Positions 6,499-56,375 of a stretch of DNA of 64,000 nucleotides are shown piece after piece. Every line of letters begins with the position of its first letter. Positions within the stretch are counted from its first letter, which is position 1. The DNA is from Octopus vulgaris. Its lineage: Eukaryota. Both the position numbers and the translations under genes were made by a program. The notes beneath the pieces are model-generated. The model saw only the letters and a list, made by a program, of their open reading frames with translations. It did no database searches and was not told the origin of the DNA. The stretch lies in assembly GCA_951406725.2 (NCBI GenBank), contig OX597821.1, positions 22,754,001 to 22,818,000 of the forward strand, read 5' to 3'.

Positions 6499-6547
6499 AA
6501 TATTAAATTTCTAAATCTCTCATAGAGATATGTATGGTGGTGGGGCG

Positions 6548-6978
6548 ATAGAATGGTTGTATACTGTCAATCTAACGTGAACGTGACAGTAGGGGGTTAC
6601 ACCACTGCTGTTTAGCCCCAGGAAGCATCAATGCTTCCTGCTGGCTTCGACACATTTTTCCCTGTGTCCTTATATACATTTACGAAGGGAGACAAACACC
6701 CCCAGCAGCCAGGCCTGCATCTAGAGACACGCATGTTTCAGGATCATTGTCCATCATCAGTCTAGAGTAACAGACTGATGATGGACAATGATCCTGAAAC
6801 ATGCGTGTCTCTAGATGCAGGCCTGGCTGCTGGGGGTGTTTGTCTCCCTTCGTAAATGTATATAAGGACACAGGGAAAATGTGTCGAAGCCAGCAGGAAG
6901 CATTGATGCTTCCTGGGGCTAAACAGCGGTGGTGTAACCCCCTACTGTCACGTTCACGTTAGATTGACAGTATACAAC

Positions 6979-6986
<8 letters not shown>
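6548..6986. repeat. Near-perfect 215-bp-arm palindrome carrying hammerhead-like motifs
   Basis: Arms 6548-6763 and 6772-6986, 8-nt loop; about 1 mismatch and 1 indel seen; (TA)n flank. Confidence 0.95.
6720..6766 (-). ncRNA. Putative type I hammerhead ribozyme
   Basis: UCUAGA-CUGAUGA-uGGAcaaugaUCCu-GAAAC-augcgu-GUC-UCUAGA. Confidence 0.65.
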
Positions 6987-20939: not shown

Positions 20940-21210
20940 TTAATAGTATGACAACAAAAGAATGAATGAGATCTCGATATTAGGTAAATAGAGGAATTTA
21001 TCTGTAATATAATATGTGACAATTATTCAGTTGCCATAATAAAACTCTGAGTTTCAGATGTCGGGACGAAAATCTGCTCCGGCATCTCGTAAGTAATTAA
21101 GACAATCAAAACATGATTGTCTTAACAACTGACGAGATGCCGGAACAGATTTCCGCCCTGACATCTGAAAGCCAGAGTCTTCTTATGGCAACTGAATTGT
21201 CACATTTTAT
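20940..21210. mobile_element. (TA)n-embedded inverted-repeat element with hammerhead-like motifs; second copy at 56104-56380
   Basis: Arms about 21013-21107 and 21115-21206; consensus uaauaa-CUGACGA-GAUG..CAUC-u-GAAAC-ucaga-GUU-uuauua. Confidence 0.7.
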
Positions 21211-23037: not shown

Positions 23038-23077
<40 letters not shown>

Positions 23078-23083
<6 letters not shown>

Positions 23084-23215
23084 TATATAGAAGGAGCTTC
23101 TACAGGACTAGTACTGTTTCATTCAAGAGAAATCTTCAGGAAGCTCAAGCTTCCTGAAGATTTCTCTTGAATGAAACAGTACTAGTCCTGTAGAAGCTCC
23201 TTCTATATAATAAAT
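23078..23215. repeat. Perfect ~68-bp-arm palindrome of two hammerhead motifs
   Basis: Arms 23078-23145 and 23148-23215, 2-nt centre; flanked by (TA)n. Confidence 0.95.
23148..23198 (+). ncRNA. Putative type I hammerhead ribozyme (mirror copy at 23095-23145 on -)
   Basis: AGCUUC-CUGAAGA-uUUCucuuGAAu-GAA-ACAG-uacuaguc-CUGU-A-GAAGCU; GUA triplet. Confidence 0.65.
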
Positions 23216-23489
23216 TAATTTTACTCTGCTATGTATTGAGTACCTTACTTACTGTGGTTAACCCCGAATCAACCCGGGACCTACATATATATATATATAT
23301 ATATATTTGAGTAGTAGAATGAATTATCTTGTTATGGATAATTCGGTTAACCGATACCTGGGTAGCAAATTCACATCAGAGAAGACACGTTTGAAGTTAC
23401 GTGCTTTCGTGTGGAAATTTGTATGTTTTTTTTTAAATATAAATATATGAAAGAATGGAGTTGAACGACGAATTAACAAAATTCCTTTA

Positions 23490-56106: not shown

Positions 56107-56375
56107 AATAGTAGTGGTATGACAACAACAGAATGAATGAGACCTCGATATTATGTAAATAGAGGAATTTATCTGTAATATAATATGAGACAATTATTCG
56201 GTTGTCGGGGTGGAAACCTGCTCCAGCATCTCGTCAGTTATTAAGACAATCACTGTCTTAATAACTGACGAAATGCCGGAGCAGATTTCTGCCCCAGCAT
56301 CAGAAACTCAGAGTTTTATCACAACAACCGAATAATTGTCACATATTATATTATCGAGGTCTCATATTCTGTTGT

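What the first reader, a model, noticed from the sequence alone, without database searches (positions are those of the whole stretch)
23078..23215. Second, unrelated perfect palindrome built from two hammerheads
Same architecture as 6548-6986 but a different sequence. The inversion point falls right at the 5' end of stem I (AGCUUC), there is a GUA triplet, a near-palindromic stem III (ACAGUACUAGUCCUGU) and a (TA)n flank. A recurrent inversion next to the ribozyme suggests a mechanistic product such as fold-back priming during reverse transcription.
Basis: partly seen in the sequence, partly recalled or inferred. Interest (0 to 1): 0.75.

Follow-up and report, generated by a model that had tools for sequence, protein, structure and literature searches.

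The report
Penelope stub mirrored at transcript start
This DNA hairpin is one of well over a thousand tiny back-to-back insertions of a Penelope-type jumping gene, a known insertion shape, but its centre likely marks where the element's RNA begins, which would explain how these mirror-image insertions are made.

Summary
Both arms are 100% identical to the pLTR of a Hydra-clade Penelope-like retrotransposon found in this genome (2,860 exact tail matches). About half of sampled copies are such short head-to-head stubs. Inverted pLTR plus tail is a known PLE insertion form, and this scan has noted it before in this and other genomes. What is added here: arms stop sharply at one base (+1). That base lies 29 nt below a conserved TATAAAT, and is preceded by a G absent from the element (19 of 20 informative ends). 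This points to the capped 5' end of the transcript. Junctions are diverse microhomology joins, and either arm can be the shorter, so two run-off cDNAs joined end to end fit better than fold-back priming. No arm ends at the cleavage site, so templates were uncut. The window's other palindrome belongs to an unrelated repeat with scattered breakpoints. The start site and ribozyme cleavage were not measured.

The parts
23049..23077 (.). Left (TA)n target run
23078..23145 (-). Inverted, tail-less arm: element positions +68 to +1, inferred second cDNA
   Evidence: 100% identical to the pLTR in L144 over 68 nt
23095..23145 (-). Mirror copy of the type I hammerhead motif
   Evidence: core at 23139 on the minus strand
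23146..23147 (.). Junction CA. The C reads as a G just 5' of +1 on the inverted arm (inferred copy of the cap); the A is an extra base
   Evidence: the element has T at this position
23148..23215 (+). Direct arm, element positions +1 to +68; 23148 is the inferred transcription start
23148..23198 (+). Type I hammerhead motif: stem I 6 bp, CUGAAGA, short stem II with U.U, GAAA, palindromic stem III, predicted cut after 23192
   Evidence: cleavage untested
23216..23288 (+). PLE tail (+69 to +141), present at this end only; in full-length copies it runs on to the ORF start at +183
23285..23307 (.). Right (TA)n target run (overlaps the last 4 nt of the tail)

Best explanation
This is a recent, promoter-less, non-coding insertion of a Hydra-clade Penelope-like retrotransposon, made of two head-to-head copies of the first 68 and 141 bases of what is likely the element's capped transcript. 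Shown: identity to the element, tail at one end only, (TA)n target, a sharp stop at +1, an extra G, TATAAAT at -29, varied junctions. Inferred mechanism: the RT/GIY-YIG protein nicks both strands of a (TA)n run. One strand primes reverse transcription at the tail end (about +137-141), the other at the AT-rich site near +67, probably on the same uncut RNA. When the bound site is the one near the RNA's 5' end, both cDNAs run off at the cap, often adding a C opposite it. Their 3' ends are then joined through microhomology (the self-complementary AGCT, or GA/TC using the added C), sometimes with templated insertions. The ribozyme is a passenger that happens to start at +1. In a read-through RNA of this copy it would be locked in a 68-bp hairpin.
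For: Element: tandem pLTR-ORF units 5.2 kb apart with RT and GIY-YIG-type motifs in L144/L238/L239; the window copy is 100% identical. Census of 93 tail-bearing copies taken in order along contig C1: 45 short+short palindromes, 42 reading through +1, 5 solo, 1 mixed. Arm ends: 37 of 92 exactly at +1, none at offsets 36-69, which include the cut site. Extra G: 19 of 20 ends at +1 outside the AGCT junction, against 11 of 63 at other ends. Genome-wide, 80 G, 14 C, 6 A in the first 100 of 364 matches (hand count; the pattern excluded T at -1 and G at -2). Solo copies read (TA)n-G-+1, with the tail (L151) and without it (L165, L166); L159 starts at G-+1 and reads into the ORF. TATAAAT sits at -29 in 42 of 50 read-through upstream sequences, with spacing kept while the bases between vary. 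Where both arms reach +1 with an insert: 18 G, 6 A, 2 T (13 loci, not a random sample). Long head-to-head pairs have unequal arms, e.g. L230, L231, L232. Contigs of independent public runs also break off at +1, and one shows the single extra base. In vitro, a PLE protein cuts and extends both strands, starts at two sites that bound the tail, and uses uncut RNA (PMC11167929). Cap copying as an extra G is reported for L1 and AMV RT (passage in PMC4038843).
Against: No RNA 5'-end data: only contigs were available and none is on record as RNA. Stem-I complementarity also ends exactly at +1 and its next templated base would also give G, so a one-base fold-back cannot be excluded. Arms almost always share the subfamily allele (only 3 exact discordant loci beside 309 AGCT-junction loci), which fold-back predicts too. 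Unequal arms could partly come from later deletion at palindrome centres. The TATA coincidence is modest in AT-rich DNA. Both ORF copies examined carry the same frameshift, and Pfam found no family.
Confidence: 0.7

Rival explanations
1. Fold-back or self-priming: one cDNA (or an antisense template) snaps back at or near stem I and copies itself, giving the second arm; the G is one base templated by stem I.
For: Arms are nearly always the same subfamily and share private variants, e.g. L133. Short arms pair with short arms (45 of 46). The second commonest junction can be drawn as a 3-bp hairpin. Self-priming on an antisense template was proposed for such palindromes (PMC3846280).
Against: The commonest junction has no loop (309 loci). 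Either arm can be the longer, and a tail cannot be copied from an arm that lacks it. Both arms can carry the G. Extension along stem I beyond 3 nt was seen in 1 of 30 GG loci (L057), and that locus has the polarity of a two-cDNA join. Tail-less solo copies reach G-+1 alone.
Confidence: 0.17
2. A few palindromic master copies are transcribed and retrotransposed whole, as a non-autonomous hairpin element.
For: Two junction types are very common (309 loci; 246 GG matches, mostly the second type), and arms are concordant.
Against: About 27 of 45 sampled stubs have rare or unique junctions. Both common junctions occur in both subfamilies, and the second occurs in both polarities to the tail. The stubs lack the upstream TATA.
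Confidence: 0.07
3. The RNA end at +1 is made by processing or an RT pause, not by transcription start; the C is ordinary terminal addition.
For: No direct start-site data. RTs can add untemplated bases (recalled).
Against: 2,035 exact matches read through +1, so there is no strong pause. G is not enriched at other ends (11 of 63). TATA at -29. The ribozyme cut lies 45 nt downstream.
Confidence: 0.05
4. Assembly or sequencing artefact (hairpin chimeras).
For: Long-read chimeras form palindromes (recalled). One-base deletions cluster in one arm near offsets 26-29 of the compared stretch.
Against: The palindrome stops at the element boundary, with different flanks and a one-sided tail. Independent runs show the same junction.
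Confidence: 0.01

Closest known systems
Hydra-clade Penelope-like elements, incl. Hydra-1_Obim (Craig et al. 2021, PMC8557442; passages, section 11, supplement hits)
   Same: C-terminal endonuclease, DKT, RW(R/K), CxCX5C linker, CxxC and CxH, hammerhead, (TA)n target, inverted 5'-truncated copy plus one-sided tail.
   Different: A different family from Hydra-1_Obim (protein and hammerhead differ by eye). The unit is 5.2 kb because of a long microsatellite-rich 3' region. The tail is about 70 nt rather than 30-40. About half of the sampled insertions stop at one fixed 5' position.
PAc / Poseidon_Ac of Anolis (Frangieh et al. 2024, PMC11167929; parts 1-2 of 4 read)
   Same: Both strands cut and extended, two RT start sites bounding the tail, AT-rich target, uncut RNA as template.
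   Different: Different clade; its ORF starts inside the ribozyme. The parts read do not address the inverted junction or the transcript's 5' end.
Adineta vaga Pen2a/Pen3a inverted pLTRs (Arkhipova et al. 2013, PMC3846280; passages)
   Same: Head-to-head pLTRs, palindromic junction, tail, putative TATA/Inr inside the pLTR, inverted pLTR shorter at its 5' end.
   Different: Explained there by self-priming on an antisense template; the census here favours two sense-templated cDNAs.
PLE minimal / dimer-acting hammerheads (Cervera and De la Pena 2014, PMC4209133; part 1 of 4 read)
   Same: Type I, in the pLTR, palindromic helix III, extra nucleotide at the 5' side of stem II, opposite-strand pairs 100-700 bp apart already noted.
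   Different: Here stem II is short with a U.U closure, and the pair abuts.
Extra G at 5' ends of full-length L1 / cap-copied cDNA (passages in PMC4038843)
   Same: One G not in the template at the RNA's first base.
   Different: Not found reported for PLEs in the searches made.

Membership tests
EN+ Penelope-like element | Single ORF with RT followed by GIY-YIG endonuclease | tested here: met
   L144 minus strand: 501-aa RT part (YRDDG) and 166-aa EN part (VY...YIG...R), split by one frameshift. Motif-based; Pfam gave no hit; atlas neighbours carry HTH_animal and RVT_1 in part.
EN+ Penelope-like element | Tandem or partial-tandem pLTRs carrying a hammerhead | tested here: met
   Three pLTRs 5.2-5.4 kb apart flanking two ORFs.
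EN+ Penelope-like element | Inverted 5'-truncated copy and a tail at one end | tested here: met
   Window copy and 45 of 93 sampled copies; long pairs too.
EN+ Penelope-like element | Target-site duplication | tested here: inconclusive
   Hidden by (TA)n on both sides.
Hydra clade | DKT, RWK, CxCX5C linker, CxxC/CxH, no CCHH | tested here: met
   SDKTK, IRWRS (R for K), CNCHDKTTC, CDLC, CMH against the definition; visible match to the Hydra alignment. No tree was built.
Hydra clade | (TA)n targeting | tested here: met
   Nearly all 93 tails end in (TA)n; two run on into the ORF.
Hydra clade | Generally under 3 kb | tested here: not met
   Unit 5,193 bp. A tendency in the paper, not a strict criterion; the coding part is about 2.1 kb.
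Type I hammerhead ribozyme | Core CUGANGA / GAAA / NUH with stems I-III | tested here: met
   U.U at the base of stem II; not detected by Rfam.
Type I hammerhead ribozyme | Self-cleavage | not testable with these tools
   Predicted dimer -29.4 vs monomer -8.5 kcal/mol; no arm ends at the cut site.
Non-LTR retrozyme | Non-coding head-to-tail tandem units, each with a hammerhead | tested here: not met
   This family's unit carries an ORF and the stub is head-to-head. The 6548-6986 family does look like such a repeat.
MITE / miRNA hairpin | Terminal inverted repeats moved as a fixed unit; Rfam threshold | tested here: not met
   Variable junctions, one-sided tail; miRNA scores below gathering.

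The most novel reading that the evidence does not exclude
Penelope-like elements integrate by copying one capped, uncut RNA twice, once from each nicked target strand, and joining the two cDNA 3' ends by microhomology. Initiation at the 5' tail site yields strong-stop-like mirror stubs whose centre records the transcription start and the cap, so start sites of PLE families could be read from genomes alone. The hammerhead would sit at the very 5' end of the mRNA, where cutting would remove the cap.
Probability: 0.55. Interest if true: 0.62.

Novelty: new member of a known kind. Interest (0 to 1): 0.43.

Why it matters
How PLEs form their inverted repeats is named as an open question (PMC8557442), and the explanation found in print is antisense self-priming (PMC3846280). 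This young, high-copy family gives over a thousand natural products with a fixed end, an extra G and two start sites, which makes the question testable in the existing in vitro system. It also places the ribozyme at the cap end of the mRNA, suggesting a role in controlling the RNA rather than in making the insertion. The window copy itself is a dead stub.

Tried and rejected
Rfam scan: no hammerhead hit. Pfam on both ORF parts: nothing. My first idea, a master with a longer stem I ending in GG, was wrong: the element has T at -1, and most GG matches are a junction. RNA evidence: no RNA holder listed and only contigs were available, so no start site could be read. The first junction script had an indexing error and was rerun. 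The binomial for mixed arms (2 of 89) assumes long partners for long arms that I did not check one by one; I rely on 1 of 46 from the short side. The 20 loci were picked by me, mostly as pairs, so they show arm asymmetry, not frequency. The GTTC-concordant count was not run, so the discordance rate is approximate, and 3 loci is only weakly above background. No ORF or other copy of this family lies in the window. Paper searches showed no paper tying the palindrome centre to a start site or cap. The library lacks most subscription journals, I did not see the original Penelope promoter papers, and the bioRxiv preprint's supplement was not seen.

Full report
Observation. 23078-23215 is a perfect inverted repeat with 68-bp arms and a CA spacer, one of three long non-simple palindromes in the window. 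Each arm, read outward from the centre, holds a type I hammerhead motif: stem I AGCUUC/GAAGCU, CUGAAGA, a 3-bp stem II with a U.U closure, GAAA, a self-complementary stem III and GUA ending at 23192. Rfam does not detect it. The insertion does not end at 23215: a 73-nt tail follows, then (TA)n.

Family. The window lies in a 2.8-Gb genome. All 40 scored candidates for the right arm, of 447, came as opposite-strand pairs. A 20-mer of the tail has 2,860 exact matches. Following the tail led to the parent element: three pLTRs 5.2-5.4 kb apart flanking two ORFs, ATG at +183, both ORFs with the same frameshift. Its motifs (DKT, RWR, CNCHDKTTC, CDLC, CMH, no CCHH), (TA)n target and hammerhead fit the Hydra clade as defined in PMC8557442 section 11. 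By eye it matches that paper's Hydra alignment but is not Hydra-1_Obim. The window copy equals element positions +1..+141 and, inverted, +68..+1, at 100%. An inverted truncated copy plus a one-sided tail is the described PLE insertion form, and opposite-strand hammerhead pairs were already noted.

Breakpoints. I fetched 90 loci from the first 93 tail matches listed on contig C1 and classified the 93 tails they hold: 45 short palindromes, 42 reading through +1, 5 solo, 1 with a short tail arm and a long inverted arm. Among 46 two-arm stubs (one of them, L108, an older subfamily copy that classes as long), 37 of 92 arm ends lie exactly at +1, 34 insertions have an arm within 4 nt of it, and no end lies at offsets 36-69, which include the ribozyme cut after +45. 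Junctions vary: 9 use the self-complementary AGCT (309 loci genome-wide), 9 use a GA/TC-type join found in both polarities to the tail, and the rest are rare or unique, many with templated insertions.

Why +1. The element has T at -1, and 2,035 matches read through it. Where arms stop at +1 outside the AGCT join, the preceding base is G in 19 of 20, against 11 of 63 at other ends. A genome-wide pattern that excluded T at -1 and G at -2 gave 80 G in the first 100 of 364 matches (hand count). Solo copies read (TA)n-G-AGCTT with or without the tail, and one copy starts at G-+1 and runs into the ORF. TATAAAT begins at -29 in 42 of 50 read-through upstream sequences; most exceptions are truncated or junction sequences. 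A TATA box about 30 nt above a start site is established knowledge; cap copying as an extra G is reported for other RTs; PLE start sites lie in the pLTR. I infer that +1 is the capped 5' end. Contigs of independent runs show loose ends at the same base and one joint with the single extra base, but contigs cannot show RNA ends and no holder is on record as RNA.

Two cDNAs or fold-back. The tail arm is shorter in 22 stubs, the tail-less arm in 10, equal in 14. In long head-to-head insertions the arms are unequal in both polarities (hand-picked loci). Both arms can carry the G. Simple fold-back predicts none of this. A protein that extends both strands from two start sites bounding the tail does. 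The arms are coupled: 45 of 46 short tail arms have a short partner although about half of all tail arms are long, and subfamily alleles almost always agree (3 discordant of 83 sampled loci; 3 exact genome-wide). That suggests one RNA copied twice, but it is also the best argument left for fold-back. The other caveat is that stem-I pairing ends at +1 and would template the same G; against this, longer stem-I extension was seen in 1 of 30 GG loci.

The other palindrome. 6548-6986 belongs to a different repeat, a tandem non-coding unit of roughly 350 nt with a hammerhead (2,408 candidates), resembling non-LTR retrozymes. It has the same one-sided-tail layout, but most of the 26 other copies displayed, of 28 fetched, read through stem I, and inversions fall at scattered places (best-hit sample, biased to long arms). 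A general rule of inversion at the ribozyme is therefore not supported.

Verdict. Known kind of insertion, new family. The scan noted such PLE palindromes before in this and other genomes; a word search for start site or cap found none, nor did the paper searches. Papers seen: PMC8557442 (passages, section 11, supplement hits), PMC11167929 (parts 1-2 of 4), PMC3846280, PMC4038843 and PMC9977147 (passages), PMC4209133 (part 1 of 4), bioRxiv 2026.07.22.740005 (part 1 of 5). Interest rests on the mechanistic lead, which is strong in sequence but untested at the bench.

Noticed in passing
window 6500-6986: The first palindrome is a head-to-head insertion of a tandem, non-coding hammerhead repeat with a tail on the left arm (about 6500-6547) only; many relatives have CCGA instead of CUGA in the core.
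   Followed up: partly
window 21040-21190 and 56210-56330: Two more, older head-to-head pairs of a third hammerhead-like family (CTGACGA ... GAAA with a long stem II), centred on a short inverted repeat.
   Followed up: no
L144 3077-3193: Runs guessed to be RNA show many T>C differences on the plus strand (A>G on the element strand; 11 places in X9, 5 in X1, 4 in X10) that the large runs do not list. This may be A-to-I editing of element RNA; strain differences are not excluded.
   Followed up: no
L144 / L238, G000:C1 about 68813000-68813200: A short palindromic stub of the same family has inserted into a TA run inside the 3' region of a full-length unit.
   Followed up: partly
L054 / L172, G000:C1 about 172236800: Tandem repeat of the ribozyme joined where +1 meets the 3' strand of stem I, as if the cDNA jumped back through stem-I homology; the arms also differ in subfamily allele.
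   Followed up: partly
L058 and L141: Rare insertions with tails on both arms; L141 also carries an internally deleted ORF start followed by a third arm beginning at G-+1.
   Followed up: partly
L007, L008, L025, L030 and others: One- or two-base deletions cluster around the cut site and stem I 3' strand in one arm of many palindromes; sequencing error in hairpins or RT slippage.
   Followed up: no
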